Source: Amoebophrya sp. A120 (lineage: Eukaryota; Protista; Dinoflagellata). From it: a stretch of 64,000 bases of DNA. Of this stretch, positions 1 through 60,005 are shown piece by piece. The notes below the pieces were generated by a model, which was given only the letters and a program-made list of their open reading frames with translations, was not told where the DNA came from and did not search any database. A program made the translations under genes and the position numbers. The stretch is taken from NCBI GenBank assembly GCA_905178155.1, contig CAJINV010000003.1:9059979-9123978 (forward strand), in the 5' to 3' direction. The first letter of the stretch is position 1; each line of letters begins with the position of its first letter.

Positions 1-178
1 TTTGCGCGCGTGGTCCATCCGCCCCAGTGTTTTGCGCGCGTGGTCCATCCGCCCCAGTGTTTTGCGCGCGTGGTCCATCCGCCCCAGTGTTTTGCGAGTG
101 AGGTCCATCCGCCCCAGTGTTTTGCGAGTGAGGTCCGTCCGCCCCAGCGTTTTGCGAGTGAGGTCCGTCCGCCCCAGT
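1..178. repeat. 30-bp GC-rich minisatellite, about 6 copies, truncated by window start
   Basis: Unit TTTGCGCGCGTGGTCCATCCGCCCCAGTGT repeats at 1, 31 and 61; variant units (CGAGTGAGG) at 91, 121 and 151. Confidence 0.95.
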
Positions 179-268
179 AAAGGGAGCACCGCGCTCAAGC
201 TTTAGACTCTGCGATGAGCGACCCCGCGCTCTACCCCGCGCGCCGTCGCCCCTCCTTCCCGTCCTCGC

Positions 269-1748
269 CTAGTTCTTCTCTTCCCCCCCCGCCCCTGCGA
301 CCGCACTATTTTCCCTAGAGATTCCTTCCCCCGAGCTAGTATTACTAGCCTCCGGGGAACAAGGAGGCGTTCGTCCGCCCTCCTGTCCTTTTTTCACGCC
401 GGCGGCCACGACCAAGTCGTCTGACTCTGAGCGCAGCTCCTCAAGGTAATGAATGCCCGGCGCCCCCCGACTATAACGTCCGTCCTCACAAAGGAAGATC
501 CGCAGCATTCGTTCCCTAGCAGCCTCATCGGCGGGAAGAGCAACCCGCTTACCAAGAACGTCTCCAAATTCGCGGTGTAGTAGAAGATGCAGATCATTCC
601 CCAAAAACCCGCGACACCACTATGCATTGCAAACGTGTCTGGGTCTGGAAACATGTAAACTTCTGATGCGCATTTTCGACCAGACAAAAATCTGTTATGC
701 ATGGACTGCAAAAGCTGCTCACTTCTTGTCCTCACTCAGAGAGGGAACTTGCCATGCGGATTAAGCATTGCGAAACAAGCTCAAAACCTGTGATGCTAGG
801 ACTTGCATGCCAGACATTCTCCGTCACGCATAAACAGCGCCACACTCTTCCAGACCCAGACATTTTTACATTTGATAACCACGGCTGTAACGCAATCTCA
901 AAAAGAACGTGTTGATCATGATCTTCACCTTCAGCTGCGGCTTCATCCCTGCTGACGGTCTTACGGTTGATGACCTCCTGCATGATCTGATCCAAGCTGC
1001 CAGCATCAGGTGGAGGTACAACATTCTGCGGTGAACCAGCACACGCGCCCTGCTCACTTCGAGATCTTCGGGTGGAGCATGATGGCAGCTGGTGGTGCAC
1101 CATCTGCAAGGAAAGAACATTTTTGCTGGCATCTGCACGGCGCGCCCTCGAGGACCACGTTCTTTCCCATGCCCTTCCTCGGGTCGTCCACCTACCAGGT
1201 GACAGAGCTTCGTCGGCAGGGCGCTCCTTGTTCGCAGTATCAGCTGTTGCCACAGCTGCACTTGTTGAACGAGGCTGTGTCTTTGCTTTCGAGAACGCCC
1301 ATTTTTCAGCCTCATCATCATCGCCTTCGTCTCGCAATATTAAAGCGCCAGTTCTCGCGTCGATGACTATGTAACCGTGTGCCCCCGTACTAGGTGAAGA
1401 CGTCTTACGTACTCTGAACGAATCCCGGTCGAGGCCGGTTCGTGTTTCTCCCAGACGAGAAAAGCTCCCGACCTCCACGACTTGGCCGCGTTGCTTCAGA
1501 CCCCGTATCAAAACCCCATCGCGAAAATGGCCTGTATGCACTTCCAACTGCGGAAACGTTTCCTCCTTGTTGGAGTAGTCCTGCTGTGCTTGGTCAAGAT
1601 GCACCGAGACGCCCTGACCAAGAGGCCCGAAAGACTGCGAAATGAAGTCCCCGGAGTGCATGCGGTAGAGGTCAGACGAAAAAACTACATCTCGTCCGTC
1701 TTTATCCAGCGTCATTGTCACTGTTACCTGCTCGGGACTTGAGCTCAA
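269..1748 (-). CDS. Hypothetical protein, at least 2 exons, 5' end uncertain
   Basis: ORF 732..1748 joins ORF 269..604 in frame (...EIALQPW-CRGFLGNDLHLLL...) after removing element 621-877 plus one ACCAC. No recognisable domain. Confidence 0.7.
621..877. mobile_element. Introner, TIR family A
   Basis: Left TATGCATTGCAAACGTGTCTGGGTCTGGAA pairs with right TTCCAGACCCAGACATTTTTACATTTGATA; perfect flanking repeat ACCAC (616-620, 878-882); interrupts an ORF. Confidence 0.92.
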
Positions 1749-2892: not shown

Positions 2893-5118
2893 TCAGCTAC
2901 TATTGAGGTTTTCCACCAGTTCTCTGAGCCGAGCCTCCGGCAACGGGTTTACGGGCTCCTTTGCCATGAATTTCAGACATTCCTTGTTCAGCTTTTGGGA
3001 CCACTGTCGTGGAATGGAGGCTACCACTAGATTCACAGCGGCGCTGGGAATAGCGCCGCCAGGGTTGCTGTCGGTGATCACCCTCAAAAGCGTGGTGCCC
3101 GGCTTCGGGCCGGGCTCCAGAGTGTTGCCCGACATAAACACAGTCACGCGAACCTGTTTTCCCGTGGGAGGGTACGCGCAATCCCGACTGCTGGTGGAAC
3201 GCTCATAAGCGAGGTAGGGATACCTGGTTGCGTAAGCGTATACCACATTTTTTACTGCGTGTTTGCCAGAACACCTCAACAGTGGTTCGTTCAATTCAGT
3301 TGTACACGACTTAGCATTGATTTATTCATCAAAGGGTAACGATTAACGTATGAAAAGAATAAACATATCAAACGGGCGGCGCGTCTACCTCTACATATTA
3401 TATATAAATATACTGGAACGCCGGTGTGCATCTGGCCTCCCGAAACCGGATAATCTCACGATTGCTAAACCCAAACACCGGAGAGCGAATGACGACGCGT
3501 TCGATTCCTCGGTAGTAGTCACCTTCCAGCATTTCGTCCACCATAAAGTTGTCTTCCCAGGACATCCGCAGTTGGACGTTCTGAATGAGATGCATGACCA
3601 CTTCGGGAGGTGCGTGTATGATACTCTCCGCGAGGAAAAAAAGCACCTTCTGGACAGGTTGTTGCGTGTTGGTGGACGACGGCGGCGCCATGGAAGTAGA
3701 TGTAGACGACGAAGAGCCGCCGAGCTCGATGAACCGCTTCCACACTTTGCACTCTGCCTTGTCCAAAGCCAAGTTCCAGAGTCCTTGCCTTTCCTCTCTT
3801 CGAAATTTGTCCAAGAACTCCATAATGTAGCCGAGTTGCTACCGAAAGGAAAAACTCCCCCTCCCCATATTGACAAGGAACGTTTTCGAAAATTTGTGGT
3901 GCTGAAATGTGACCACGAACCGTCTCTGTGTTGCATGAAGGCGACTCCACAAGCTCCGCCGCACTCTACAGGCGGTTTGTCATGCTGTTGCACCTACAGC
4001 GTAGACGTCTGTCATGCAAAGCGCCTAGGCCAAAACCTGTCTACTCGTCGGGCTTAGTATGGTGCGCCTGCAGTCCTCGCCAGCAAGACAAATCTGATTT
4101 GTGTACGCAAATTGAGCATCAGAAACATTGTTTTGATATGGGGAGGGGGAATTTTTCCTTTTGATAGTTCCTCTTCCGCGTTCATGGGCGTCGCGAGCCG
4201 CTGGACCAATGGAGTTGCAATCATGTTTTCGAGGCTGCCGAAGCCCCCTCGGAAAGGGTGCAGTGGCAGCTTCGAAGGGAAGCCCTCCGCAGCTGTCGAA
4301 CATCCAATACCGCCGCTCCCTGCGAATATGGTGAAGAAAACGATATTTTTACGGGTAAGAGTTCAAAAAATGGACGGCAAGGCTAGGCAAATCGTAACTA
4401 ACCTACCAAGGGATACAAAATCTACAAAAATGCAATTTTCCCGGGCGAGACAGCTATCGGTCGGTTTGTTTTTTTGTTTAATAACTACCCGACTCCTCCA
4501 AAAAACTCGTAGATCCTCCAACCGCACTAAATAAATCTTGATCTACTTCCTATTGCGATTGCTGCAGAATTACCACAAACCGCCTGTAAATACTTCACAT
4601 TTTTGTTGCGCATGCGCATCGATATGATCACAATTATACTGCTGCACAACGCTGCTGCTGCGGGCCACTGCAGCAGTTGCAGTTGTCCGGTTTCGGTCGG
4701 CAGTAAATCTTCAAGTAGAACTAAAACTATGTCTAAGTATAAGTAGCTGAAGCGGTCAACATCAGTATACAGAAAAATATCGTCTACCAGACGAGCCAAC
4801 ATATTTACCGCCATCCTTTTCCGAATCCGAATCCTCTTCGCGCACCGAATAAAAAGGCTCCGACTCCTCGTCTTCCTCACGACGCACGCGTTGCCATGTA
4901 TCCACTGAAGATGAACCTGCCTGCGCGTACAGAGGACTATCTCGTCCTGCACTAGCATGTCGCCCTTGGAAAACCGACACTCCACCAGCACGGTGGCTTT
5001 TAGTTGCTACATACAACTGGTCCGCACCTCTATCGGGGCTACGACCTGGATCTGGTAGTGCAGACACCAATGCGGCCGAGTCGTAGGACTTTTTTGCGGT
5101 GCCGAAACAACACGGCAT
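2893..5118 (-). CDS. START-domain (StAR-related) lipid transfer protein, 4 exons
   Basis: START-like motifs: KVWKR, RMSWEDNF, SNREII, DSNPGGAIPSAAVN. Exons about 5118-4809, 4319-4167, 3834-3414 and 3223-2893; GT-AG introns at 4320-4808 and 3224-3413 plus introner 3840-4166, all joining in frame. Confidence 0.85.
3840..4166. mobile_element. Introner with its own TIR type (TAC...ATA ends)
   Basis: TACCGAAAGGAAAAACTCCCCCTCCCCATAT pairs with ATATGGGGAGGGGGAATTTTTCCTTTTGATA; flanks GTTGC/GTTCC; removal gives ...MNAEEE-LGYIMEFLDK. Confidence 0.88.
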
Positions 5119-11200: not shown

Positions 11201-12895
11201 TCACTCGTTTGAAGCGGCGAAGTCGATAGCGTGTTTCGAATACCAACTCGCAAGCAAATCGGCCTCGACCCACTCCTTGTTTGTGTCGCGATTCTCAAAC
11301 ATGTGCAGTGTGCTGTCGGCCTCCGCGAGAGACATGACGACGAACTTGAGCGGTTCTTCATCAAACTCCTCGTCAAGTACTGACGTGCTGCTCTCAACAT
11401 CATAATTGTCAACATTCGGACTAGTAGAGGTAGTTGCACTTCTCGCTGTGCCACCAGTGTCTGGAGGTTCTTGCGTCGAAGCGGCTGCGGCTGCTGCGAG
11501 TCGACCACTAATAGTGCTGGCTATGGTCCTCGTGCTGGATCGCGTTCTCCTACTATTTGCCACCAACTGCACCGCAGCACGGATGGCATTTCTAACCTGC
11601 TCCACGTCTTTTTCCTCGACGGCCAGTATGGCGCGGATGTTCAAACGATTGGCCCACTTTTCGCAACGCATCAGCATGTGCAGTTCGGTGTGGAGAAGCC
11701 GTCGCTTGAAGCCCGCCCAGGTTGTCAATTTGAATCTCTCCTTGAAGAGCAAGCTCTGGTCGTCCGCAGCCCCATGCAAGTCCACCACATCGGCCAAGAC
11801 CATAACCGGCACACTGCCCGGACCTAGATTGCGAGACAGATTGGTCACGGCAGTCGCATTGGCCTCGCGCGCAACCCCACCGAACCGGTTCTGCCAGCCG
11901 TGGGCAGCGCGACCGGCGTTCTTCAATGCGTATTGTCTTGAAACGTCCCACATTTGTACGTTTTCGCCTTTCCCCGTGCACCGGGACATCTTAAAAGAGA
12001 GCGGCGCCGCTATCCTATAGTTAAAACGTGGCTCCCACCCCAGGAGAGTCAAGATCGATGAGAACTTTGCGAACACAAATCTTCCAGATGAAGTTTTAAA
12101 GCCTGTTCTTGCGCATGAGCATGACAAGTTGGGGCTCTACTCAGTATGCTGGTTGTGTTTGGCTAGTGCAGCCGCATCAAAAATCGATCATCTTATCTTC
12201 AGTAGAGCATCTTCACAAGTTCTCACATAGCATTAGATAATGGCCGTTATTATGTTGGGGATGCGCATGACAAACATTCTACTTACTAGATATGTTTCTT
12301 TAGCTTTTTAATGCATATATTGCAGTGCAAAACTAAAATAGCAGTTTAAGTAGGTCACTGCACCACGTAGCTGGAGCGAACTGCGAGAGGGTAAGATGCT
12401 TAGCCTGTAAATTTGATACAACTCTGGGGTGAAAAGGACGTTTGTGCACTACATGATAGAAGCGGCCACAACGAGCTCGCGGTTGTCGAAAGTCCTGCTG
12501 TGGCCCTTCCCCAAGTTGGACGCTCCGGACATCTGCGCCCGCTCACCACCAGCATAGTCAATCCCCTTTCGTTCGAGGAACAGGGTTCCGCTCAGCTGCG
12601 CGTTGGTAAAGAGAATCGCAGACACTACGTGGTAAATGGCTACCCCGGCAAGCGCCCAAGGCCGCGGAAAAGCCAGGTCCGCACTTTTGGGCCTGACCAG
12701 CTCCAGAGCCCGACTCGTAACCGGAGGGGAGTGCGCGAACATGTCGCTCTCATATTCAGTGTATAGGTCCACCACTCTTTGCACAGTAGCATTTATTATC
12801 CGGGAGTGCGCCAGAGGTGGAAGCCGGGAGTGCGCTTGCATGGTTGAGAACGCAAGTGAGTAGTATTTGTCGTCCAGGTATGGCGGACATCGCAC
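11201..12895 (-). CDS. Hypothetical protein (3' exons, probably the same gene as 14662-15941)
   Basis: ORFs 12449..12895 and 11201..12127 join in frame (ELVVAAS-PLSFKMSR) after removing element 12011-12458 plus 5 bp. Confidence 0.65.
12011..12458. mobile_element. Degenerate introner, family B-like
   Basis: TAT...ATA ends; decayed TIR (CCCACCCCAGGAGAGT / ACTCTGGGGTG); flanks GCCGC/GAAGC match 3 of 5; frame restored on removal. Confidence 0.65.
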
Positions 12896-12950
12896 AAAAA
12901 AAACATTTCTGCTTCACTGTAGTATGAAGGTCGCGCCCGGAGGGCGATAT

Positions 12951-14323
12951 TGGTAACCAAATGCGTGCGCGAAAATCTAACCAGCGCGAAAGCCTAACCA
13001 GCCGCGCGGCGAAAGCGCGGCCCTGCGGGCCGCGCTTTGGCGCTATTTATTTTTGATTACAGTCCCACTCCTTCGTCTTCAAGCCCCCCGCATGAGAAAC
13101 TGGCCCCCTGGCCAGGAAGGTTTCTGGGTCATCGGTGGCTTCCGGATTTCTATTCAAAGCGTATCGCAGGAGCCTGCGATACGCATTGAATGCAAAGTCC
13201 GGCTATGTGGCAGCGGGGCATCCTTTTTAGCCCCTGCATGACAAACTGGCCCCCTGGCCCGGGAGGTATGTTGCCGGGGGGAGGGCTTGAACGGGGCATC
13301 CTTTCTAGCCCCCTGCATGACAAACTGGCCCCTCGTCCCGAAAGGTATGCGGAAGGCCGAAAACCCGCGAACCCTTCCGGGCCACCAAAATCGGCCATTT
13401 CAGACCCGGGGAAGATGCAGAATTTCTGCCCACAACCCAGAGCAAATGCGGACTTTGTGACATGCCTCCGCCCGCTTCTAGTGCGATTTTTTTTCCCCAA
13501 TCGCGATGGTATGGCGCAAGCGCGCGCCCGCCGGACCGCCCTTGGTGGCCAGTTTCTAAGCCTGCCGGGGGTTCTCGATTTCTTTTAATTTTCGCGTTTT
13601 TTTCTGGTTTCTAAGTGGCCCGGGGGACCTGCACATTTTCACCGACCGCAGCTGACTGGCAGTTTTCAAGCCTGCGGAGGGATTGCGCTTTTGCGCAATT
13701 TTTCATCTTTTTATATTTTCCAAGTGGCCCGGGCGACCTGGACATTTTCACCGCCCCCACCTTGGTGGAAGTTTTGAAGCCTGCGGAGGGATTGCGCTTT
13801 TGCGCAATTTCTCATCTTTTCCCATTTTCCAAGTGGCCCGGGTGATCTGGACAAAATCCGACGATTGCCTCCACCCACGTTATGACGCATTTTTTTGCCA
13901 TTTTTTTCAAACTTTTTCCAGTTACGAAGCGGCCCAAGGCTTCCGGACAGGTCGCGGGCCTGCTGCTCCAACGCAGCTGGCCAGCGGGCGGAGCAAAAAA
14001 TAGTCCGTCTCTTTTTCAGATATCAAGTGGGCTAAACCGCAAAAATACTCTTTTTTCACCTTCTCCCGCTTGGTTTCTGCCGTTTTTGCGACATTTTTGA
14101 CCTCCTGGCCATTTTCCCATCTGGTCCGCTTTTTTTCCCTTCTCCCGCTTCATTTCTGGCCATTTCCCTGACCTTCACGCCTCCCGGCGGTTGCCCTATA
14201 TGGTAACGGCAACTGCCTTCGCGCTGCGTTTGCTAAGCAATATCGCAAGCGCGCAGAGCGCGCGCGCCGGCTTCGTGGGCCGGCGCGCGCTCTGCGCGCG
14301 CGCGCGCACGCATTTGGTTACCA
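12951..14323. mobile_element. 1.37-kb non-coding TIR element (probable non-autonomous DNA transposon)
   Basis: Perfect 21-bp TIR TGGTAACCAAATGCGTGCGCG (12951-12971 / 14303-14323); internal direct repeats; GC-rich hairpins near both ends; no convincing ORF; target-site duplication unclear (GATAT/GATCA). Confidence 0.8.
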
Positions 14324-16007: not shown

Positions 16008-16553
16008 TAAATTAATCCTCGATATTAGCTCCATCTTCACCTCGATCAATTCACGTTTCGGCAGGGCAATACACCGTGGCCATCCACCTCGTCACTTCAT
16101 GCACTGCTTCACTCGCGGGAATCGATGAACACGAACCGAAACAGTAAGTAAAGGGCTTAATAAAGCTCATTCCTCGACATCTTCACCGACCAAAATTCAG
16201 GCTCTCCTCGCTCCTGATGTGAATATCGATTCATTGGTCGATTAAATTTAAAAGGAACGGAACGCATAAGCATAAGGAAGACGAATCCGCGCTCGCTTGC
16301 CTCAAGCACGAGGACGAGCACCTCCTGCTCCTCTGTGGGCGCATTACAACCTGACCACTCACAGCACCCGCCTCGCTTCAACCCAGAAAGAGAGGAGGTT
16401 TCTTTTGAGCAACATAAGCTGTAGGTAAAATCTTTTCTTGCTGTGCGTCAGTCTTGAGGACGTGCATCTTCTCGCGTTGAGGCTGCTGCTGCCATGTTTG
16501 GCTGTGAATCTTGTTGATGAAAACAAAATGAAGATGGAGATGAATAAATTGTA

Positions 16554-18740
16554 TCAATAAGGATCCTCCGGTGGCGCCCTGATGACGCGTTGCTCGATCG
16601 TCTCGAGGACAGAACACCACTCGATACTAGGAATTACTTCAGGTTCAGCTGTATTCTTGTTCTGCGATTCCGCGGAAAATCCTGAGCCGGCGCTTTTCCC
16701 GTCTATGGCAGCCTGTTTAACGACGGATTTTTCCTGCTCGATCATGTTCCGCAGCATCAGGTCAAGTAACGGCAGCTCGGGTTTTCCGTTCGCAAGATTC
16801 CGCTCCGTATCTGCCATCTGCAGCGTCCGCATCAGTCGCAAATCCTTCAGTGCAACCGACAGATCGGCCCCGATTGGCGGCGTACGAAACTCGCGCTTGA
16901 CTAGCTTGCCAGCGTACACGTCGGTAATTGCGCCAGGCAGCACCCCACCCTGCGTGAAATCCAGTAAACGGTCCCGCTCGATGCCAGCCGCGTCCAACAG
17001 ACACAGACATTCGCCGAGTAGCTCGCCCAGCCCATACACGAGAAAATTCGTACAGATTTTGTACTTGGCCGAGGCCTATCAACTGTAAAAATGTCTGGGT
17101 CTGGAAGATTCCGGGATTTGTGATGCATATTTTCCATGAGCCATGATGTCTGTGATGCATGCCGTAGCATCACAGATTTTTAGAGGGCTTTGTGATACCT
17201 CTACCGCATGAGAAATGCCCTCTCCGCGTAACACAAACTGGATTCCTGTTATTGGTTATGCAATACAGATTTCTTTGGAGGAATCCAAAGAGAGCATGAC
17301 AAGTTGCAATCTTCCAGACCCAGACATTTTTGCAATCCATAAGGCCGTCGCGTCCAAATCCGACACTACTCGGCTGAGCCGCGAAAAGCAGGGCGCGACC
17401 TTCTCCCGGACGTACGCAGCCGCGTCTGGTTCTTCGGACGAGATCCAGGAACAGAGCAGCCGTTTTGCAGCGTGCTCGGGCCGCCCGGTCACTGAACAGT
17501 TCACAAATTGTGCGTCCTTTGCCTTGGCGGTCCGGGACGTGATGCGCGCCACTGTCTCCGGTGAGACGGTTGCACAGTTGATAAGCAGCATGCTCACCAG
17601 CCTTTTTCTTCCTTCTTGCTCTGCTACTGCTGCTGCACCTACTCCTGGCGAAGCGGATGTTGACGAACTGCTTTTATTTGCGTTGTGTGCGTGATCGGCA
17701 GCGAGAGCGACATCATCATCTCCTGGGCTTCTACTATAATCCGCAGAACATAAATTCTCTACTTGATGTTCGGCGACCTTATCTGACCCGTCGTTCTCTT
17801 GTTGACTTCCGGTATAATTACGCTCAGAAGCAATTGATGAAGACGCTGCTCGATTTAAGCTTATTGCGTAGTCCTCGTCCTGCTCCTGCTCCTGCTTCAT
17901 TAAGGCATGCACCATCTTTGTTCGCCCATAATCATCCCAATTGTCGAGGGCACGGAACATCAACTCCTGCGTAGCTCCGTCTCCATGTAACATGAAGACA
18001 ACAACCTGGCACGCTCCGATGAGCTCGTCAAGCGTTTCGTGCGCAAAAATCCGGACGCGTCGGGACACTCGAGGTTCGCGGGATTATCAGAAGAAAAAAG
18101 TGTTACAGTTTTGACACACTTGCTGTCCGCCATCAGCAACACGGATTTTTTCTGCATATATAGAGAAAACTTTAAATGCAGAGATCATGAGGGAACTCAC
18201 GGATGAAACTAGGCTCCTTAGTCTATCCGGCATAAGAGACCTCGTTTGTCTTGCCTAATCTGCAATACCATGTGTAGCTGTAAACACTTTTTTCCTTGCA
18301 TAGGGATGCCAATTGGTCCAATAACTGCTTCAACTCCTGCGTCTTCGCACCGGTGCGGTTGTACAGGTGGACCTCCCTGAATGTGCCGTGCTCGAAGTAT
18401 CAAGTGTAAAAACGTCCCCACCCCAGAGTTGTGATGCAGATTTGCAATAACAGGAACATTTGTAATGCGCATCTCCATGAGAGGCGTTTCTAGTCGTGTT
18501 TTGGGATTTGTAATGCTGTAACCAGGATAAGCAGATGGATTTGTGATGCGCTTTTCCTTGCTAACCTGCACTACACTACGGACTGCAACTTGTGATGCGT
18601 GAGTCCCAAAACTTCTAGGTTTGTGTTGCAAAATCCCCAGGTTGACTCTGGGGTGGGGATGTTTTTACACAGGATACGAAGAGATTGCGGGCCATAGCAG
18701 AGCCCATCGCACCAAGACCCACAAACCCCAGGCTTGTCAT
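16554..18740 (-). CDS. NAD(P)-dependent beta-hydroxyacid dehydrogenase (3-hydroxyisobutyrate dehydrogenase / 6PGDH-like family), 4 exons
   Basis: After removing three introners: MTSLGFVGLGAMGSAMARNL...YNRT...LINCATVSP...CSVTGRP...AKYKICTN...ALKDLRL. These give the Rossmann GxGxMG, the catalytic Lys/Asn and the KDL motif. Confidence 0.92.
17077..17341. mobile_element. Introner, TIR family A (opposite orientation to 621-877)
   Basis: TATCAACTGTAAAAATGTCTGGGTCTGGAA ... TTCCAGACCCAGACATTTTTGCAATCCATA; perfect repeat AGGCC; removal gives DATA-SAKYKICTN. Confidence 0.95.
18085..18302. mobile_element. Introner with its own TIR type
   Basis: TATCAGAAGAAAAAAGTGTTACAG ... CTGTAAACACTTTTTTCCTTGCATA; perfect repeat GGGAT; removal gives DQLAS-REPRVSRRV. 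Confidence 0.9.
18398..18676. mobile_element. Introner, TIR family B
   Basis: TATCAAGTGTAAAAACGTCCCCACCCCAGAGT ... ACTCTGGGGTGGGGATGTTTTTACACAGGATA; perfect repeat CGAAG; removal gives MARNLF-EHGTFREVHLYNRT. Confidence 0.95.
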
Positions 18741-44400: not shown

Positions 44401-47310
44401 CATTGCGGACGGGCTGGTAAGAAGCGCTGCGTCAGATTGGTATACTGTGTGAAAACATCGTCCCGCCCACGCCCACCTTGGATTATTTCTCAAGAAGAAG
44501 CTGCCTACTTTTTTACTTTCTGTCTGAGCTTGTGCAGGTAAAATTCGTATCTGCACGCACAACGATCGTGACGTGCCTCCCCAGACAACAAAGCGTTTTT
44601 TGATGTCGCTTTGGAAACAAGTTAGCAGCTCTAGTAACCACGATTAGCAAACGGCTGTTCCAGAATATTCAAGAGGTAAAAATTACCAAGATGAGTTATT
44701 TGAATTGAATGAATAAGAAAATTTGCAAACAGAGGGCGCAGCGTGGCGCCGACAACAATGATCAGCAGATATGTTGGACGGGATCAATTCGCCGAGAAGT
44801 AGTCAGCGAGCGGACGCGTCTCCGACATACATTTGCTTGTGCGCCGGATCTCCAGCTGAGTTTTTTACTGGGCGCGAGCGCCGAGTAGGGGAGGTCGCTT
44901 CTTTCGCTTTCACACAAGAATGCGGCTCGGCGAGAAAAGCCGCAAGCCAATGGCCCAAACAGAATTAATTCGGGCCTGAATTAAATCCGCCACCACAGGC
45001 CTCACCCCGGGCCCGGGGCCCACGGGGAGGGAAAAATAAAAAAATCTCACTGGGCGGGAAAAAAATTCGTTTTTCCCGCCCGGAAAAAAACGAATTAAAC
45101 GAATTAATCGAAAAAAAACGCGCCCAAAAAATTTGACAGGGAAATCACACATGAAATCCTGACCCAGCCCGCGGGGCCGGACCCGGAAATTAATTATTTT
45201 TAATTCCCCCTCCTGGGAGATTTTTTTTTCGATTTAATTCGAATTGATTCCGCCCCTGCTGGGCCAAAATTAAATCCGACTCAAGGGCCAGGTTTGAATC
45301 AGGCCAAATTTTACTCGGTGCGTGGGGCCCTGTTTTTCCGGGGATGGTTTTCGTCTGGAGAAAACGCGAGTCTCCGTCGCGTCAGCATGCAGCTCCAGCA
45401 GCCATCACATCATCTGCGAGGGAGCTTGTGCAGGCCGGGCAAAACACCAACAGAAGCAAAGGACCACAACCCCAAACAATGATGTCAACCGCTGAGCATA
45501 TCAAGTCGCGCCTCCAGGTTCTGCAGCTGCAAAAAAAAAATAATTCATTTAAATGGATTAACTCATCTTGGTATTTGGACCACATAAGAATATCAATGCG
45601 GTTGCGGCCGTGCTTCTATACCTAATAATTACTTACTTTGTTGCGGGCCCAGGCGAATTTATATCTGTCATCCACATCCTTGTCGGGCGCACCTCTCACG
45701 AAATTTCCATTTGTTGCACAGCAGGACAAGCATCTTGAATATGGGAAAGGGACGTTTGTACAAGTGATAATTGGCGCGCTCAACGTAATAACGGCGAAAC
45801 CGTTCGGCTGCCAAAGAAAAGGTCGTGGTCCCGGGAGTTGTTTTGCTTCCCGACCTCGCAGCGGGATCAGCGCTTATCGAAATGAAAAGCGCCCCATCTC
45901 GAAAGTGAGCGTGTAAGTGGCGTAGTACAAGTAAGTTCCTGCATTCAACTAAGCCTTCTTCTAGTCTTGTAATTTATCACGTTAGCAATCACAGCACACG
46001 AAGGCGGCACCTGAGGCGCCTTCCCGTCCTCGTTTTTTCAGTGCTGAACGATTGGAATGCAACCCGGCGCTTTTGAGTTTGATGCTAAGTCTGTTGAGCG
46101 ACCAAACGGAATTTTTACCGATCTTTGTGTTCAAGCACAAAAATGCTGGTTTATTGAGTTCTTATTGGAAATCGGCGGCTATTTCCGAGATGCGGCTGCT
46201 GGGGCGGGTGCCTTGATAGCGTCCACCGCGGGTTTTTCGTCTTTTCGCGATTGGTGGATTAAGAGCTGTCCCTCGATATCTTCTGGTAGGAAAACGTCAG
46301 CCCAGAACGCAGGACTCCTCGACCAGCGCACCAGCTCGCTGATGCCCACATCGTCCCACAAAAAGTATACGATAGTGGACAACTCCCCCTGCCCCTTCGT
46401 CGAACATCAGCATAATCTGCTTATTGAAGCATAGAAAATGGAGCTTGTCGTGTGTGAGGAACTTCTCATGCCGGGACTGACACTCCATGTAAGTGGAAGT
46501 AGTACCTACTCTAACTCTTTGCGCTTTATTCGGTGCGGCCTAGGAGTACGAGTAGGAGCTGCTTGCATTTTACATCTCACAAAACTGAAAGGAAGAGGGA
46601 GCTGTCTGTCTTTCTCTTCATAGAGTATTCATACCTTTGCGAATGCGATCGAGTACCTGAAGCGGCAAGAGGCAAATCAGTGAACAACTTTGATGTATCG
46701 AGATCGACAATCAATACAGCGAGCAAAGGGGGCGTCAAAAAAAAATAGCAATAGCTCAATACTCGGAAAGGTGGTTCTTTACGCTCTTGTGGTAATCATG
46801 TAGATAGCTTGGAAGAGTCTTTTCTGGATCTGCAGTGCCAAGAAGCCCACAAAGCACACCGCGCTCGGTCGTGTGCTCCGTCGAAGTTGCCCCCCCTGCA
46901 GGCAACCGCACGTGCGAACGCCGCTCGCTTGATATTTCTTTTTCATGATGAATGGCAACGTTTGCATCTGACGATCCGGGAGTCTTTAATGAAGCCATGC
47001 GATTTCGTAGCGTTTGCATAGGCCTTTCGTGCAGAAGTCCTGGAACGTCAAAGTTTTTTCCCGGTCGGAGCAATTTGCGGCTTCCCAAGCCCTCGCTCCA
47101 GATCTGGTGCACCCGTTTCACGAATTTGCGGTCTGGAGGCGGGTCGGTGCGGATGTCGCCTTCAGCTACAGAACGAACACGGCCCATCGGTAGAAAGTCG
47201 CATCGGCTGCGACTTGTTTCCACTTTGTACTCATCGCTTGCGAAGGTGCCTGTTGCTTCGAAGGAATGCAGAAGCCCAAAGAACAGCAGAAAACTCCAAC
47301 AATGCAACAT
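41449..47310 (-). CDS. DXD-motif glycosyltransferase, GT32 / Gly_transf_sug family, multi-exon
   Basis: Signal-like N-terminus; KRVHQIW; YFLWDD; FRDLAKYLILYFYGGIFLDADI; EPRHPFW; IFFLPWHNFNP (restored by removing 43399-43568). Exon structure between 44500 and 46760 is unresolved. Confidence 0.8.
43399..43568. mobile_element. Short introner (CAT...ATA ends)
   Basis: CATTCCCGGAAAATTTACCA...CCCCAT pairs with ATGGGGTTGGTTAATTTTCAGGGAATA; flanks AATGG/AATGT; removal gives YGSDD-IFFLPWHNF. Confidence 0.85.
44960..45318. repeat. Homopolymer-rich segment with degenerate inverted ends (possible MITE)
   Basis: GAATTAATTCGGGCCTGAATTAAATC matches the reverse complement of GGTTTGAATCAGGCCAAATTTTACTC at about 17 of 26; abrupt change in composition; no target-site duplication seen. 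Confidence 0.4.
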
Positions 47311-53681: not shown

Positions 53682-56600
53682 CTATCGGAGAGCATTTTCT
53701 AGCACCACACGCACGCCCCAGGCCTTCTTTGTAACATCTCGTGCAAAGGCTACAACCTTTGACGACAAGTCGAGTGCCGTTAATGCACTTTTCGTTGTGG
53801 AATGGTCGCCGAACGCCCTTGCGTGAACCTCCATGAGCATGCGCAACTGCAAAGAACCCTCCCCCGGTCTGGCGGGAAAAGCTAAGCTATTCTTTTCCGA
53901 CCACTCCTGGAAGGAACAGAAAAGTGGGTCTCTTCTGTTATGCGAAAAATCATTCTGCTGCCCTGGCTGGATACTGCGTCCTGCAGACGTTGCATTGTTG
54001 AGAAGTGACCCTTTCAAAAAGGTTGGCGCTTGTTGACTTAACACCTCCATCTCTTTGTCCGGCAAAGCCCAGCTCGTCCAATCGTCGTACCTACCGCATC
54101 CGCTCTCATCCGTCCGTACAAACACCTGAACGGTGTCTCGCAGCGCTTTGCGCCAGCATTCCGTCACGACAGGCGTGGTATCATTCTTCAAGTAGCTGTG
54201 GTCAGCATCAGGTGCATGAACAAGAACATCAGCAGCAGGTGCACAACCCCGTGTCGACGGCGAGCTAGTCTCGGTTGGCAGGGTACCATCCGCTGGCCGG
54301 TGAGGAGCCGTCTGGAAAGGTTCCGCGGAACCAGGACGCTCGTCTTGGTCAACCAACAGAAGCGCCATAAAAGTGGAGAGATCCACTAAGGCAAGGGTAG
54401 CGTATCGATCCGCTTCCACGCGGCTCGTTGGCACTCCACCCCAAATCGCGTCCTGTGCGTCGAGGTGCAGTACGTTGGGCAGCCGCATCAGAGTCGTATG
54501 GAAGCGTCAGGTTTGAAATCGTCAAAGTTGAAATAATTTGTAATGCATAAAATGCATGCCCCGAGGTGCGTGCGTTGCAGAGCAGGCAAGTGAGGCCGAT
54601 TGTAAGCCTGTTTGGGGTTACAGCTCGAGCTGCTAAAGTAGCATGAGAAAATCACTCTTCTTTGCCTAGACAGCACGACAAACTGGATTTAGGGACCGCC
54701 GAAATTTGTCATGCGCCACTTGGAAAATGGGTTCCAACTGGCATCCATTTTATGCATGACAAATTATTTCAACTTTGTCGATTTCAACTCTGACACATCC
54801 ATAAGTCGGATTCGACACGTGTTCTTGCCAGCGCAGGTTATTGATCGTATTACAATGAAAAATGCCCCCACCCCCGAACTTGAAAGCATTTGTATTGCAA
54901 ACCTTTCCAAATGAAAAATTCGCCCTCTTGCATGTATCAGCATCACAGATTTCCGATCGCGAATAGCAAAAATTTGTATTGCAAAAGATCCCAGCAAGAG
55001 CGGTGCTTGTCATGAAAGCGATGCGAAACACGACTAGAATCTGCATCAGAAAGATTCATACTCCTTTCATGCATGACAAAAAGTTTTCATTTGGAAACTT
55101 CGCATCACAAATTTTTGCAACTTTGGGGTGGAAAGCACTTTTCACTGTAATAGATCGCGGGATAGATTTCTCTGCAGCAGTGGTGAACATCCACCTCCAC
55201 TTCAGCACCGCCACTGCACATGCCCATATGGTCCTTTTCCGGGCGAAAAAAAACGAAGAAACTTCGCAAACTGTAGCCTTCGTTGTCCTGTGCGCACTCC
55301 CAAATTTCCCGTCCAAGCTCTTCTTTGAACGCCAGGGAGGCAAACAGAACCTGCTTTGCACCCTCAACAATGCTGCTTGCATCACACAGATTCAGGTAAC
55401 ACAACAACGGCGCCGATGATGCTTCGTCTGCTCTCGTTGTTTTTGCTAACGAGAGCTCTCGTCGTCCCAGGAGAGGTCTACTAGTACTTCTCTCGAAAAG
55501 TGAAAGGGGAGACCACCTAGTTCCAACACGAAGAAGATCTTGTCCTTCCAGACCAGGAACAGTGTCGTCCATGTCGTCCCTCTTGGGAACATGTGTTGTT
55601 CGCGCTGGTACCGCGAGCGACCGTGACGATCCCACAAGGCGGGTCCGCACTTCCTCACGAATATATCAAGTGTAAAAATGTCTGGGTCTGGAAGAATGCA
55701 ACTTGTCATGCTGATTTTGGATTATAAAAAAATCTGTTAATTGCATGAGCAGCAAAGAGAGTCCAAGTTTTGCTACACGCAAAGAGCATTTGTCATGCGG
55801 TATAGGCATCAGGAAGCCCTCACAAAATCTGTGATGCTAGGGCATGCATCACAGACATCAGGAGTCATGCAAAATGTGCATGACAAACCTGGCAATCTTC
55901 CAGACCCAGACATTTTTACATTTGATAGAATAACGGCAGGATCGACGTCCACGTCCGCGCGAGTGCAGAATATCAAATGCAAAAATGTCTGGGTCTGGAA
56001 GATTCTGAGATTTGTCCTGCATGTTTTACATGACCCAGGATGTCTGTAATGCACGGCCGCGCGTCACAGATTTTGAGAGGGCTTCCTGATGCCTACTCCG
56101 CATGACAAACGCCCTCCCCGCGTAGCACAAACTAGACTCCTCTTGCTGGTCATGCAATACAGATTTTTCTAGAGTTCAAAGTTAGCGTCACAAGTTCCAA
56201 TCTTCAAGACCCAGACATTTTTACATTTGATACAGAAGGCAAAGAAACGAAACAGGGCAGCAAGGAACCCCGTGTCCGGGAGGAACCGGTCGGCTGCGCG
56301 ACGCCAAAATTCCCCCGTCACAGGAATTGCAAAGTTTATCCCGACCGTGTTATACCACCACGACATCGCCAGACCCGGGTCCGGTCGCTTCACTCGACTC
56401 GGAGAGACGAGCATCTCTACTTCGCTTCTTGAAGTAGCCTCCGCTGCGACATCTTGTTCACTCTCGACGTCGACGTCAAAAGGGCTGCCAGAAGGCGGCC
56501 GACTCGTTGTGGACGTTGTCGTAGAAGCGGAAACAGTGCCGCGCCGCCCCCAGTGCCTTGAAGTGCGCGCGTTCTGTATTTCCCAGTACACCATCCAGGT

Positions 56601-59234
56601 ATGGTAGGGCGTGACGGCTTTCGCAGTCCCTAGAGGTGCGTCTGGATCAGAACAGTGACTTGCTGGGCGGCACTGGAAATAGCGTTTGTTCCCATAAGGG
56701 GCTAACACCGTAGTAGTGGTTGTGCTGTTGTCTATTGTGTCGCTCACGTTCGTCTTTTTGTTCACCGACTGCATCATTTTTCGCCGCCATTCCGCCGACT
56801 TCACCTTGCGCATGTGCATGCGGTACACCAATAATCCCATCGAAGCCAACCGCGCCGGAAAGTACCGCTCCGGCTCCCGTACGGCCAGTGTGGGAAAGAA
56901 AAGCGACGCTCCCACGTAGTTGCAGGCTCCGCCAACAGCGTATTGCACCCAGGCAGAGTAGAAGCTGTTGAACTCCGGGGACGCGCGCACTCGCCAGAAG
57001 CAGTCCGGCTCGTCAACGCGGCAGTTATACATGTCGAACGGATCGGTAGTAGCGAGGCGCTTCATCACCATCTCGCCCGCGAATGCGTTCCGCCTGCAGG
57101 AACGGAAACGGTCCGCGAAAACCATTTCGGCCACGTTGACCATCATCATCAAAGGCGCGGCGCGAAGTTTACGTTCCCAGTGTTGTGACAGCTTTACGCC
57201 TGCTGACACATCATCTGTAGCACTCGAGGGATTCATGATTGAAAAAAATTGCTCAGCGTCTGCGCAGGAACTGCTTTTGACACTACCTGAAACGAGAGCT
57301 CCACAGTCCGTCGTGTCGTCTAGTTCTGCTAGCTCGTGTTTTGTTGCATGTCGTGTCCACAAATCAGCGTCCACAGGTAAATGATCTGCGAGGGAGGCAA
57401 TTCCTGGCGTCGCAGTCGAACTCAGACCAGAGTATTTTTTGCCTAACGCAGGGGCGGGGACAGGCCCTCGTACAACCGCCACGAGGCGATCAGCCGAGGA
57501 GGAGACAAGGCCCCAAAACGCCTCACGGAGATTCGTCGTGAAGCTTGTTGTGTCTTCACCCGGTTCATGAGATGCTGTTGCTGATGCACGGTAATTATGT
57601 CGCTCCGTGTTCTTCGTCGTGGTGTTACCAGGAGACAGTGCGGAAACAGCTGCGATCGTTGGATCACTAGGCGTACTAGAGCCACTACTTCTGTCAAGAA
57701 CTACATCAGCTGACATCCCGTTGCCAGGGCGCTTCTCGGGAGATGTTGACGAGGACACTTCTGCGTTGATTTCTGGTGCCGCAGGAGCGGCAGAATACAC
57801 CGCAGTAGAGTTCTTGGCCTGCCGCTGCTTTATCCAGGCTTTCCGTAGGTGCGAGAAGCCGTCCATCGCAGAAGGCACGGTCATCCACTTCAAGACCATG
57901 ACTACAAAAGTCAGCGAGTTCACCACCGCGTTCTTCTCAAGCATGTTCCAGGAGAACAAAGGCGGCACCTGAAAGCCAGCCATTGTCTCTTCTAGTACAG
58001 GCAGAAAGCAGCCAGAAAACCAGTCCCAGTCAGAGTCGAGTGAAGCGACCAACTTCTCATGCAAATGCGACTCCAGCAGAAACCGCAGCCCAAATTCCTG
58101 AACACTCGTCTGCTGCGGAAAAAGGTCCGCCTCGTCATTCTGCATCGCGACGAAAGATTCCGCCAGGGAGGTGGAGGATGAAGATCCGTCTCCTTTCGCT
58201 GCACGGTTGCGGTGTTTTGATGTTGGAAACCGCAAAATTGGTGCGATCCAGGGCTGCGCGGTAGCAAGTCTCGGGATCATCTCTTCCACAAGATCTAGCA
58301 GCTCCTCCTTCAAACTGTCTTCAGAACCTGATTCATCGTCCGCCTGGGGCGTTGCTCTCCCTCCGACCCTTGCTTTTTCTTCTTGCCCTATCTGCTCCAG
58401 GAGCGTCGTGCACTCCCGCTTCCTAAATTCGTTTTCCAAGAGAGGGTCATCAAGGTGCGTGTCGGAAAAACTGTGTCGTTGCACACCACGCAATGTGCCA
58501 TAGTCCGTACGGTTCGCGACCGATAACAGTGCGTTCCCGAGGGTGATGCGCCACGCAGCGCTTCGGGGCACGGCGGCCTCGCTTTCGCTATAGATCAGCG
58601 GCCTCGTAGTGCCGAAAACTTGAGCCAAGAAGTCCAGCGCAACCTGAGCATCCGACCTCGCATCGATTCCGCTCATCGTCCACAAGTCTGTGAGCATGAG
58701 ACCCGCATACCGCTTTGCCTGCAATTTCGTCTTGATCACTGTCCCCCAAATTTCGTCGTTTTCAAGGTAAACCTGATTTGGAACCTGCCGAATCAAAGTC
58801 GGCTTCGACACGAAGTCTACCCAAAGCTCAGGTCTAAAACTATCTGGGAAAAAACTTGCAGCGCAGGCTTCCCGCACCGGGATCCGGAAGAAGACGAAAA
58901 AGGACCGCAAAGACCTGTGGCCGTCGTGCTCTGGGTTGTTCCTCTTTACCCGGGCGCATTGCCAAATGACCTCGCTCAGTGCGGTCTCGAAAGAGGAAGA
59001 GTACTCGAGTGGTCTTGCGCCCTGCTTCAATTCTTTGACAAGACAAACATTCACGTAACAGAGCTGCTCTGGTTCCTTTGCTTCTTCTCGCCGTCGCCAC
59101 ATTTGGCCGGTCTTGTAAAAGCGTGTCGCGCGAACCTCGAAGGTTATCAACCTATCGTACCCGAGGTGGACCACCCAACGCAATAGGACACCGTAGAAGT
59201 GGAACAACCGCGGCGACGGGCCAAAACGCGACAT
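53682..59234 (-). CDS. Large hypothetical protein with a twice-repeated uncharacterised domain; 5 exons, 4 introners
   Basis: Continuous frame after removing 55971-56232, 55664-55927, 54848-55152 and 54497-54803. The motif LCYxNxC..IWxCA..SLRSFFVFFR..VSxPTLxR.PN..IWG occurs near both ends. Start codon uncertain. Confidence 0.85.
54497..54803. mobile_element. Introner, family C (long TIR of about 64 bp)
   Basis: TATGGAAGCGTCAGGTTTGAAATCGTCAAAGTTGAAATAATTTGTAATGCATAAAATGCATGCC has an inverted copy ending at 54803; perfect repeat AGTCG; removal gives HVSNPT-LMRLPN. Confidence 0.95.
54848..55152. mobile_element. Introner, family B-like
   Basis: TATTACAATGAAAAATGCCCCCACCCC ... GGGGTGGAAAGCACTTTTCACTGTAATA; perfect repeat GATCG; removal gives IYPAI-NNLRW. 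Confidence 0.93.
55664..55927. mobile_element. Introner, TIR family A
   Basis: TATCAAGTGTAAAAATGTCTGGGTCTGGAAGA ... TCTTCCAGACCCAGACATTTTTACATTTGATA; perfect repeat GAATA; removal gives DPAVI-REEVRTRL. Confidence 0.96.
55971..56232. mobile_element. Introner, TIR family A, inverted relative to 55664-55927
   Basis: TATCAAATGCAAAAATGTCTGGGTCTGGAAGA ... TCTTCAAGACCCAGACATTTTTACATTTGATA; perfect repeat CAGAA; removal gives FFAFC-TRADVDV. Confidence 0.96.
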
Positions 59235-60005
59235 CTTGTTCAGAGAGGCAACGTGTCGGAGCGAATGTGTACTTGCACCACCTCCGAGGTTCTCCTTTTC
59301 TCGACAAGCCACCTACGACGCCTGACGAAGAGTCCTCCAGAGCCGATTATTTCTTACTGGTGTAGGTACGAGTTGTATCTCTCTATCTTTTCTGCGAGCG
59401 CTCAAAAAAAAAACCGAGGCAGGCACACTCGGAGACCCAAAGCGCAAAAAACGGCAAGAGTGTGGCGCGTAACCAGGCTCTTCTTGGTTTCGCTTTTGCT
59501 TTTGGTCAACACCAACAGAAAATTTTGCATGACAACGAGCGACACGACCTAGTACAAGGAGATCGGATGATGTAACAAATATCTTGTACTTGAGTTGGCG
59601 CAGCTCCGTCTCGCTCTCGCAGCCGTCACGGGAACAAAAGAATTGCAGCCTACAAGGAGTTGAACTTGAACATCCAATGAACCACCAAGAGGTAGACGCA
59701 GACCTGCGACTGTGAAAGCAAAAACAAATAAACATCGACTCGCGTCGCTCTCTCCGACCGGAACGGCAAGATTCCCATCTTTCTAGATGATAAAGAAGAA
59801 TGAATGCTTTAAATTTGAAGAGCTTCATACATGTCATCGAACCTGTGAAATCGAACAGAAATCGTACAGAAGTGTCAACAACGTCCGTGAACGGATCCGT
59901 CCGCCAGGGCCCATCGGAATATCGAGTTGTGGTGCCGCTGTCTTTCCTCGGCGTTCAGGTTCAGCTGGGGAATAAATGCTTTTACAACAAGCAACAAGTC
60001 AGTGT

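What the first reader, a model, noticed from the sequence alone, without database searches (positions are those of the whole stretch)
55664..56232. The same introner family sits in both orientations, even within one gene
Seen in sequence: the body of 55664-55927 (GGCATCAGGAAGCCCTCACAAAATCTGTGATGC) is close to the reverse complement of the body of 55971-56232 (GCGTCACAGATTTTGAGAGGGCTTCCTGATGCC). Copy 621-877 is oriented like the first and 17077-17341 like the second, yet all host genes are on the minus strand. Established: spliceosomal and group I/II introns need strand-specific signals such as a branch point, polypyrimidine tract or ribozyme core. Inference: only symmetric features can specify removal here (TIR stem, TAT/ATA ends, direct repeat, motifs present on both strands), suggesting structure-guided splicing or an unusual spliceosome or nuclease-ligase route.
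Basis: partly seen in the sequence, partly recalled or inferred. Interest (0 to 1): 0.88.

Follow-up and report, generated by a model that had tools for sequence, protein, structure and literature searches.

The report
Introns that work either way round
These are the already described jumping-gene introns of the marine parasite Amoebophrya; copies of one family sit in genes in both directions about equally often and carry no standard splice ends, so they are likely recognised only by their identical, mirror-image ends, by machinery that is still untested.

Summary
Observation confirmed. 55664-55927 and 55971-56232 are 81% identical reverse complements; 621-877 lies like the first, 17077-17341 like the second; all hosts are on the minus strand. 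The host protein is identical to a deposited Amoebophrya sp. A120 protein, and the elements match the published A120 introners (TAT-N7-AAA ends, direct repeats). Each has a 5-nt target duplication; only removal of element+5 nt reproduces deposited proteins (6 of 6). In a second, related genome the family is 33:33 by orientation to the host strand, 15:14 among neighbours, and restores frame both ways (13/14, 12/16), also in RPB1 and KIN17. GT-AG-type ends occur only at chance level. Here the two copies would pair with each other rather than with their own ends, which argues against a simple equilibrium hairpin. No RNA junction was seen directly. Best guess: a U1-less spliceosome reading the terminal repeat (0.45); rival: euglenid-like nuclease-ligase (0.33). 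Known elements; unbiased orientation not found in print. The scan noted similar introns in other protists.

The parts
55664..55927 (-). Family A introner, 264 nt, TAT...ATA ends; body runs opposite to the host transcript's direction as defined against 55971-56232 (type T1)
   Evidence: stops in all three minus-strand frames; skipped in P0001
55971..56232 (-). Family A introner, 262 nt, reverse orientation (type T2)
55664..55699 (.). Terminal inverted repeat arm, pairs with 55892-55927 (36 nt, 94%)
   Evidence: (I7)
55892..55927 (.). Terminal inverted repeat arm of the first copy
   Evidence: I7
55971..56004 (.). Terminal inverted repeat arm, pairs with 56199-56232 (34 nt, 94%)
   Evidence: (I11)
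56199..56232 (.). Terminal inverted repeat arm of the second copy
   Evidence: I11
55659..55663 (+). 5-nt target-site duplication GAATA, repeated at 55928-55932
55966..55970 (+). 5-nt target-site duplication CAGAA, repeated at 56233-56237
55928..55970 (-). 43-nt spacer between the copies: a small exon with one duplication copy at each end; kept in the deposited protein; forms the loop of the predicted copy-to-copy duplex
53682..59312 (-). Host gene: a 1490-codon stop-free frame once four introners (+5 nt each) are removed; deposited model P0001 covers 57236 to 53685; no Pfam family
54848..55152 (-). Third introner in the same gene (other family, TAT...ATA, duplication GATCG)
54497..54803 (-). 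Fourth introner in the same gene (other family, TAT...ATA, duplication AGTCG)
621..877 (-). Family A introner oriented like 55664-55927, duplication ACCAC
   Evidence: skipped with +5 nt in P0008
17077..17341 (-). Family A introner oriented like 55971-56232, duplication AGGCC, in a NAD-binding dehydrogenase-like gene

Best explanation
These are MITE-like introners of Amoebophrya, with TAT...ATA inverted-repeat ends and a 5-nt target duplication, that sit in exons in both orientations about equally often and are likely cut out of the pre-mRNA, together with one duplication's worth of sequence, by a likely modified, U1-less spliceosome that would read only the terminal repeat. Shown: anatomy, 5-nt duplication of free sequence, unbiased orientation, the need to lose element+5 nt in both orientations, absence of ordinary splice ends. 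Inferred: (1) a transposase or integrase making a 5-bp staggered cut inserts copies without regard to transcription; (2) because the two ends are mirror images, the transcript starts with UAU(C/G)...AAAA and ends with UUUU...(G/C)AUA whichever way the copy lies, so end signals need no orientation; (3) the 5' cut lies at or up to 3 nt before UAU and the 3' cut 2-5 nt after AUA, set by distance and not by AG (two informative imperfect duplications); (4) ends are paired up co-transcriptionally, one copy at a time, since at equilibrium opposite neighbours would pair with each other. That the catalyst is the U2/U6 spliceosome is the least supported step.
For: Anatomy: 89 of 104 complete copies have a perfect 5-nt direct repeat, against 2, 1, 0, 0 for lengths 3, 4, 6, 7; 87 different 5-mers among the 89; 257 of 261 elements end TAT..ATA, 0 found in two shuffles. 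Orientation: 33:33 among 66 copies whose flanks agree on strand, 49:48 among all 97 analysed; 15 same, 14 opposite among 29 neighbour pairs, needing no strand call; families B, C, D also both ways (4:5, 3:4, 1:4). Removal: 6 of 6 window elements with a deposited protein are reproduced only by +5; frame restored in 13 of 14 and 12 of 16 confidently called copies, P 2e-8 overall; RPB1 join is exactly collinear with yeast Rpb1 830-833; KIN17 carries both orientations and all three joins match the A120 orthologue without gaps only at +5. Register: at 3840-4166 only the upstream duplication copy fits P0004, and orthologues P0005 and P0006 have the same residue; at L031:1770 the upstream copy matches P0003. 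For a spliceosome: 83 of 89 spliceosomal proteins and U2, U4, U5, U6 found in A120, U1 not (PMC7789003 section 10); tolerance of odd ends by the spliceosome is reported in Fritillaria and Polarella (review PMC11282704 section 6); either-orientation spliceosomal introners exist.
Against: The deposited proteins are gene models whose derivation I did not establish. No GU or AG at the ends: 17 of 89 copies allow GT/GC/GA..AG on either strand, against 17.9 expected by chance. A ~35-bp stem would bury the ends that snRNAs must pair with. Euglenid introns of the same build are reported to give circles and no lariats (review). Five of 30 confident calls did not restore frame, and the KIN17 T1 join has one residue more than human KIN17. 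The register rests on two cases.
Confidence: 0.45

Rival explanations
1. Same elements, but removed by a spliceosome-independent endonuclease-ligase that recognises the paired ends or terminal motif and makes a 5-nt staggered cut in the RNA, like the nonconventional introns of euglenids.
For: No ordinary splice ends; each copy alone folds into a long terminal stem, z -11.6 and -7.5; U1 not detected; euglenid nonconventional introns share TIRs, TSD-like repeats and non-canonical ends, and are excised as circles without lariats (PMC11282704 section 6; PMC6221363 passages).
Against: No G-U over A-C bias in the stem in transcript sense, 45:43 over 62 copies (weak test, as mismatches sit at a few polymorphic positions); neighbours in opposite orientation would misfold at equilibrium, -371.6 against -238 kcal/mol; no Rfam ribozyme or tRNA-like match, only sub-threshold hairpin hits; no candidate enzyme was sought or found.
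Confidence: 0.33
2. The elements are removed from DNA (somatic excision or empty alleles), so no unusual RNA splicing is needed.
For: TIR plus duplication is a DNA-transposon anatomy; exact loss of element plus one duplication restores the original DNA.
Against: In the DNA-like run X5, contigs at single-copy depth (42.8-43.9) run from exons into the elements at 54520, 55102, 55690 and 56210, and none of the 15 joints shown is an empty site (179 more not shown). The A120 non-canonical introns were defined by transcript-to-genome alignment.
Confidence: 0.06
3. One orientation is spliced properly and the other poorly or not at all; the mixed copies are tolerated damage.
For: No per-orientation splicing efficiency was measured; in Polarella classes 6, 8 and 10 one orientation is favoured.
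Against: 33:33 (95% interval 0.37-0.63); both types restore frame; both occur in KIN17, and one type each in RPB1 and an SNF2 helicase; all 12 window elements have stops in all three frames.
Confidence: 0.05
4. The elements stay in the mRNA; ribosomes hop between matching codons in the two duplications, and the reported junctions are reverse-transcriptase template switches across hairpin and direct repeat.
For: Hairpin plus direct repeat is the known substrate for false junctions (PMC4176328 passages); 'template switch', 'RT-PCR' and 'direct RNA' do not occur in the main text of PMC7789003; a 5-nt repeat always holds one in-frame codon.
Against: In 9 of 19 imperfect duplications the mismatch falls at position 1 or 2 of the only full in-frame codon, as it does at 3840-4166. 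In the RNA-like run X1 the element bins are far less over-represented than in X5 (616 against a background near 3; 489,000 against 44), and a 1612-nt contig stops at 54491, next to the duplication (suggestive only).
Confidence: 0.03

Closest known systems
Introner elements (IEs) of Amoebophrya sp. A120 (Farhat et al. 2021, PMC7789003; sections 10, 11, 12, 16, 25 read, supplement text searched, figures not seen)
   Same: Same organism by protein identity; IR motif starting TAT, seven variable bases, then at least three A; direct repeats of 3-5 nt; hairpin; non-canonical ends; mean length near 240 nt.
   Different: Nothing in kind. The orientation of elements relative to the host transcript is not treated in the passages and supplement text seen; the strict 5-nt duplication, the 50:50 split and the neighbour misfolding are additions.
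Either-orientation introners of Polarella glacialis (classes 2, 3, 6, 7, 8, 10) and Aureococcus anophagefferens (bioRxiv 10.1101/2020.10.14.339549, passages)
   Same: Transposon-derived introns with TSDs that create introns on either strand.
   Different: Those use GT/GC/GA and AG sites from the element or a constrained TSD, and classes 6, 8, 10 are biased to one orientation; here the TSD is unconstrained, such sites are at chance level and no bias was detected.
Nonconventional introns of euglenids (PMC6221363 passages; PMC11282704 section 6)
   Same: TIRs bring ends together, TSD-like repeats, non-canonical junctions, coexistence with ordinary introns, mechanism unknown.
   Different: Different end consensus (CAG/CTG, Y|R); circular products reported there, untested here; orientation data for euglenids not found.
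Non-canonical MITE-derived introns of Fritillaria borealis (seen only through the review PMC11282704)
   Same: TIR and TSD, removal despite non-GT-AG ends, attributed to an adapted spliceosome.
   Different: Preferred AG-AC/AG-AT ends and a preferred exonic TAC; no such preference found here.
Ginger-like integrase DNA transposons; A120 introner family 38 (PMC12130899 section 6)
   Same: TIR elements in the same genome with Copia/Gypsy-related ORFs are a candidate mobiliser; a 5-bp duplication is typical of such integrases (recalled).
   Different: No ORF in family A; no link between family A ends and family 38 was tested.

Membership tests
Amoebophrya A120 introner elements | Terminal inverted repeat starting TAT, seven variable bases, then three or more A | tested here: met
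   Consensus of both ends in both orientations; definition
Amoebophrya A120 introner elements | Direct repeat of 3-5 nt at the exon/intron boundary | tested here: met
   5 nt in 4 of 4 window copies and 89 of 104 others
Amoebophrya A120 introner elements | Repeated family in the genome | tested here: met
   Four copies in the window; 71 and 94 contigs with unrelated flanks at the exact ends 55664 and 55971 in run X5
Amoebophrya A120 introner elements | Removed from transcripts (RNA-seq junction) | tested here: inconclusive
   No junction read seen; deposited proteins skip them
MITE / non-autonomous TIR DNA transposon | TIRs, fixed-length TSD, no coding capacity, dispersed copies | tested here: met
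MITE / non-autonomous TIR DNA transposon | Cognate autonomous element or transposase | not testable with these tools
   No whole genome held
Canonical U2-type intron | GT/GC...AG ends | tested here: not met
   17 of 89 allow GT/GC/GA..AG on either strand, 17.9 expected; none at 55664 or 55971
Canonical U2-type intron | Branch point and lariat intermediate | not testable with these tools
   Needs lariat sequencing
Euglenid-type nonconventional intron | Terminal stem joining both ends | tested here: inconclusive
   Predicted for each copy alone but displaced by the neighbour at equilibrium
Euglenid-type nonconventional intron | Circular, non-lariat excised RNA | not testable with these tools
   No RNA ends available
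Group I/II or tRNA-type intron | Ribozyme core or tRNA-like fold | tested here: not met
   Rfam scan of 54300-56400 to E 1 gave four sub-threshold hits, none a ribozyme

The most novel reading that the evidence does not exclude
Amoebophrya has a second, spliceosome-independent and orientation-blind splicing pathway for nuclear pre-mRNA that recognises transposon ends, cuts 5 nt staggered as the integrase did in DNA, and so makes tens of thousands of insertions harmless on either strand, convergently with euglenids.
Probability: 0.3. Interest if true: 0.9.

Novelty: already known. Interest (0 to 1): 0.52.

Why it matters
How Amoebophrya removes its non-canonical introns (over 60% of all its introns) is an open question raised in 2021. 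Unbiased orientation narrows it: every needed signal must lie in the ~35-nt terminal repeat or be present on both strands, and no signal can come from the target duplication. It also halves the cost of insertion, since no copy lands 'the wrong way', which would help explain the invasion. The locus is a ready test substrate: two opposite copies 43 nt apart are predicted to pair with each other, so correct inclusion of the small exon would discriminate co-transcriptional, end-by-end recognition from an equilibrium hairpin.

Tried and rejected
Sequencing runs: no listed holder is on record as RNA, which is no evidence either way. Lay of X1, X5, X9, X10: joints swamped by repeats, raw RNA runs nearly empty; no junction read was obtained, so splicing at RNA level stays unobserved. 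The coding model behind strand calls was trained on this window, so its window check (11 of 12 minus) is not held out; independent checks were Pfam (5 of 72 ORF pieces hit, 3 above cut-off, 5 of 5 agreeing) and the neighbour test. Rows dropped: 18 of 122 copies lacked one or both TAT/ATA ends, 2 more had under 4 of 5 duplication matches, 5 had short flanks. The ORF-join metric was clear for 9 of 12 window elements and ambiguous for 3840, 18085, 18398. A purine difference at the duplication between orientations (P 0.03, post hoc) vanished in the element frame over 102 copies: not claimed. G-U versus A-C test: null. PDB search with the 17349-18080 exon: no hit. Rfam: nothing. Huff 2016 not held; Henriet 2019, Guminska 2021 and the journal version of Roy 2023 seen only through a review or the preprint. 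Supplements of PMC12130899 and PMC9860276 were not read and that of the preprint is closed; they could contain orientation counts for A120 families. Searches behind 'not found in print'.

Full report
Observation. The two elements are there as described. 55664-55927 and the reverse complement of 55971-56232 are 81.4% identical over 264 columns (E 6e-70); 621-877 is oriented like the first and 17077-17341 like the second. Each starts TAT, ends ATA, has a terminal inverted repeat of about 35 nt and is flanked by an exact 5-nt direct repeat. The same scan gave 12 candidates with a perfect repeat against 1-3 in five shuffles; I kept 11 of them plus 3840-4166 (4 of 5) as the window's 12 elements. 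All 12 have stops in all three minus-strand frames.

Identity. The exon upstream of 55971 matches one protein in the database, 100% identical and named Amoebophrya sp. A120 by its source. The published A120 introner elements have inverted repeats starting TAT, seven variable bases and at least three A, with 3-5-nt direct repeats (PMC7789003 section 11). That is this anatomy. The paper reports over 60% non-canonical introns, 83 of 89 spliceosomal proteins, no U1 snRNA detected, and leaves the splicing mechanism open.

Both orientations must be removed. Taking out each element plus 5 nt gives a 1490-codon frame through four elements. Of removals of 0-11 extra bases, only 5 reproduces the deposited proteins at 6 of 6 elements that have one: 55971, 55664, 54848, 54497 (P0001), 3840 (P0004), 621 (P0008). 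These are gene models; published A120 models were transcript-guided, but I did not establish how these records were made. Independent support comes from orthologues: P0005 and P0006 are collinear across the 3840 site.

A second genome. An exact 20-nt piece of the repeat retrieved 145 loci from metagenome contigs; the 80 listed share one accession prefix, and its KIN17 is 92% identical to A120's. Of 122 distinct copies, 104 had both ends; 89 had a perfect 5-nt repeat and 13 had 4 of 5. With a coding model trained on the window, 66 of 97 analysed copies had both flanks on one strand: 33 in each orientation. Among 30 with clear margins the split was 14:16 and +5 restored frame in 13 of 14 and 12 of 16 (P 2e-8 against one third); five did not, and some copies lie in ordinary introns (one in RPB1). 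Without any strand call, neighbouring copies were 15 same and 14 opposite, which is informative because 98.5% of A120 genes lie in co-oriented blocks. Pfam agreed with the strand call in 5 of 5 hits among 72 pieces, three above cut-off. In RPB1 the left exon ends at yeast residue 830 and the right resumes at 832-833, with +5 supplying exactly the gap. KIN17 holds one copy one way and two the other; all three joins match the A120 orthologue without gaps only at +5, though the first has one residue more than human KIN17. Other families behave alike (B 4:5, C 3:4, D 1:4; H 4:0 and G 0:1 on few copies), and a shared internal 8-mer shows no strand preference, 43:41 with 24 ties.

What can specify removal. 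The duplication is free sequence (87 different 5-mers in 89 copies), and GT/GC/GA..AG placements on either strand occur in 17 of 89, against 17.9 expected. In transcript sense both orientations present the same first and last 32 nt. This does not exclude a spliceosome: either-orientation introners are reported in Polarella and Aureococcus, there with ordinary splice sites and, for classes 6, 8 and 10, a bias to one orientation. Two results weigh against a plain equilibrium hairpin. The arms show no excess of G-U over A-C in the transcript sense (45:43 in 62 copies; a weak test). And although each copy alone folds into a terminal stem, the two together are predicted to form one duplex of about 230 bp with the 43-nt exon as loop, -371.6 against -238 kcal/mol; the first copy's own stem is favoured only until the second copy's first repeat is transcribed. 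Two imperfect duplications keep the upstream copy at positions 1-2, which places the 3' cut at least 2 nt beyond the element's end.

Mechanism. Most likely (0.45): random-orientation insertion by a transposase with a 5-bp stagger, then co-transcriptional removal by a U1-less U2/U6 spliceosome that reads the terminal repeat and sets the 3' cut by distance. A close rival (0.33) is a spliceosome-independent nuclease-ligase as suspected in euglenids, whose similar introns give circles. DNA-level loss is unlikely, since contigs of run X5 enter the elements at single-copy depth. Ribosome hopping is unlikely, since 9 of 19 imperfect duplications break the only in-frame codon at position 1 or 2. Reverse-transcriptase switching remains a caveat for cDNA junction counts, but cannot explain why RPB1 and KIN17 stay intact around the elements. 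No RNA junction, lariat or circle was seen here.

Novelty. The elements are already known, and so is intron creation in either orientation. I found no statement that A120 introners are unbiased in orientation (searches; text and supplement look-ups); unread supplements and subscription papers may hold one. The value lies in the constraint this puts on an open mechanism and in the test substrate the locus offers. Interest 0.52.

Noticed in passing
window 44441-45769 with 44681-45576 inside: A 1329-nt TAT...ATA element with a perfect 5-nt repeat contains an 896-nt stretch bounded by a different 34-nt inverted repeat: probably a second transposon nested in an introner, in a glycosyltransferase-like gene. 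Longest stop-free run 125 codons.
   Followed up: partly
window, all 12 elements: The 8-mer TGT[CGA]ATGC occurs 20 of 20 times on the plus strand inside elements, which cover 6.8% of the window (9 of 17 for its reverse complement). It is shared by otherwise unrelated families: a candidate sub-terminal protein-binding site.
   Followed up: partly
L001-L066 neighbour pairs: At gaps under 150 nt, 6 pairs are same-orientation and 1 opposite; at longer gaps 9 and 13. A hint, not significant, that close inverted pairs are disfavoured; this window's pair is such a case.
   Followed up: no
loci L001-L145: The duplication starts at codon position 3 in 53 of 113 confidently framed insertions (31 and 29 for the others; P 0.009). 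Target preference or a bias of the frame caller.
   Followed up: no
L066:1060-2031 and 2576-2815: RPB1 carries a 972-nt family A copy with perfect 24-nt end repeats, and another element that appears to sit just inside an ordinary GT intron.
   Followed up: partly
window 57236-59312: The host frame is open about 690 codons upstream of the deposited model's start, and 58665-59093 is 34% identical to residues 423-573 of the same protein: the model may be 5'-truncated and the protein has an internal repeat.
   Followed up: no
window 12100-14050: Non-coding-looking region with 109-nt and 79-146-nt spaced repeats that also carry the GCATGACA motif, without TAT...ATA ends found.
   Followed up: no
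window 1-208: 30-nt tandem repeat, five to six copies, at the window start.
   Followed up: no
window 16300-18720 (minus): A NAD-binding dehydrogenase-like gene holds three introners of three families (17077, 18085, 18398) within a 472-codon frame.
   Followed up: partly
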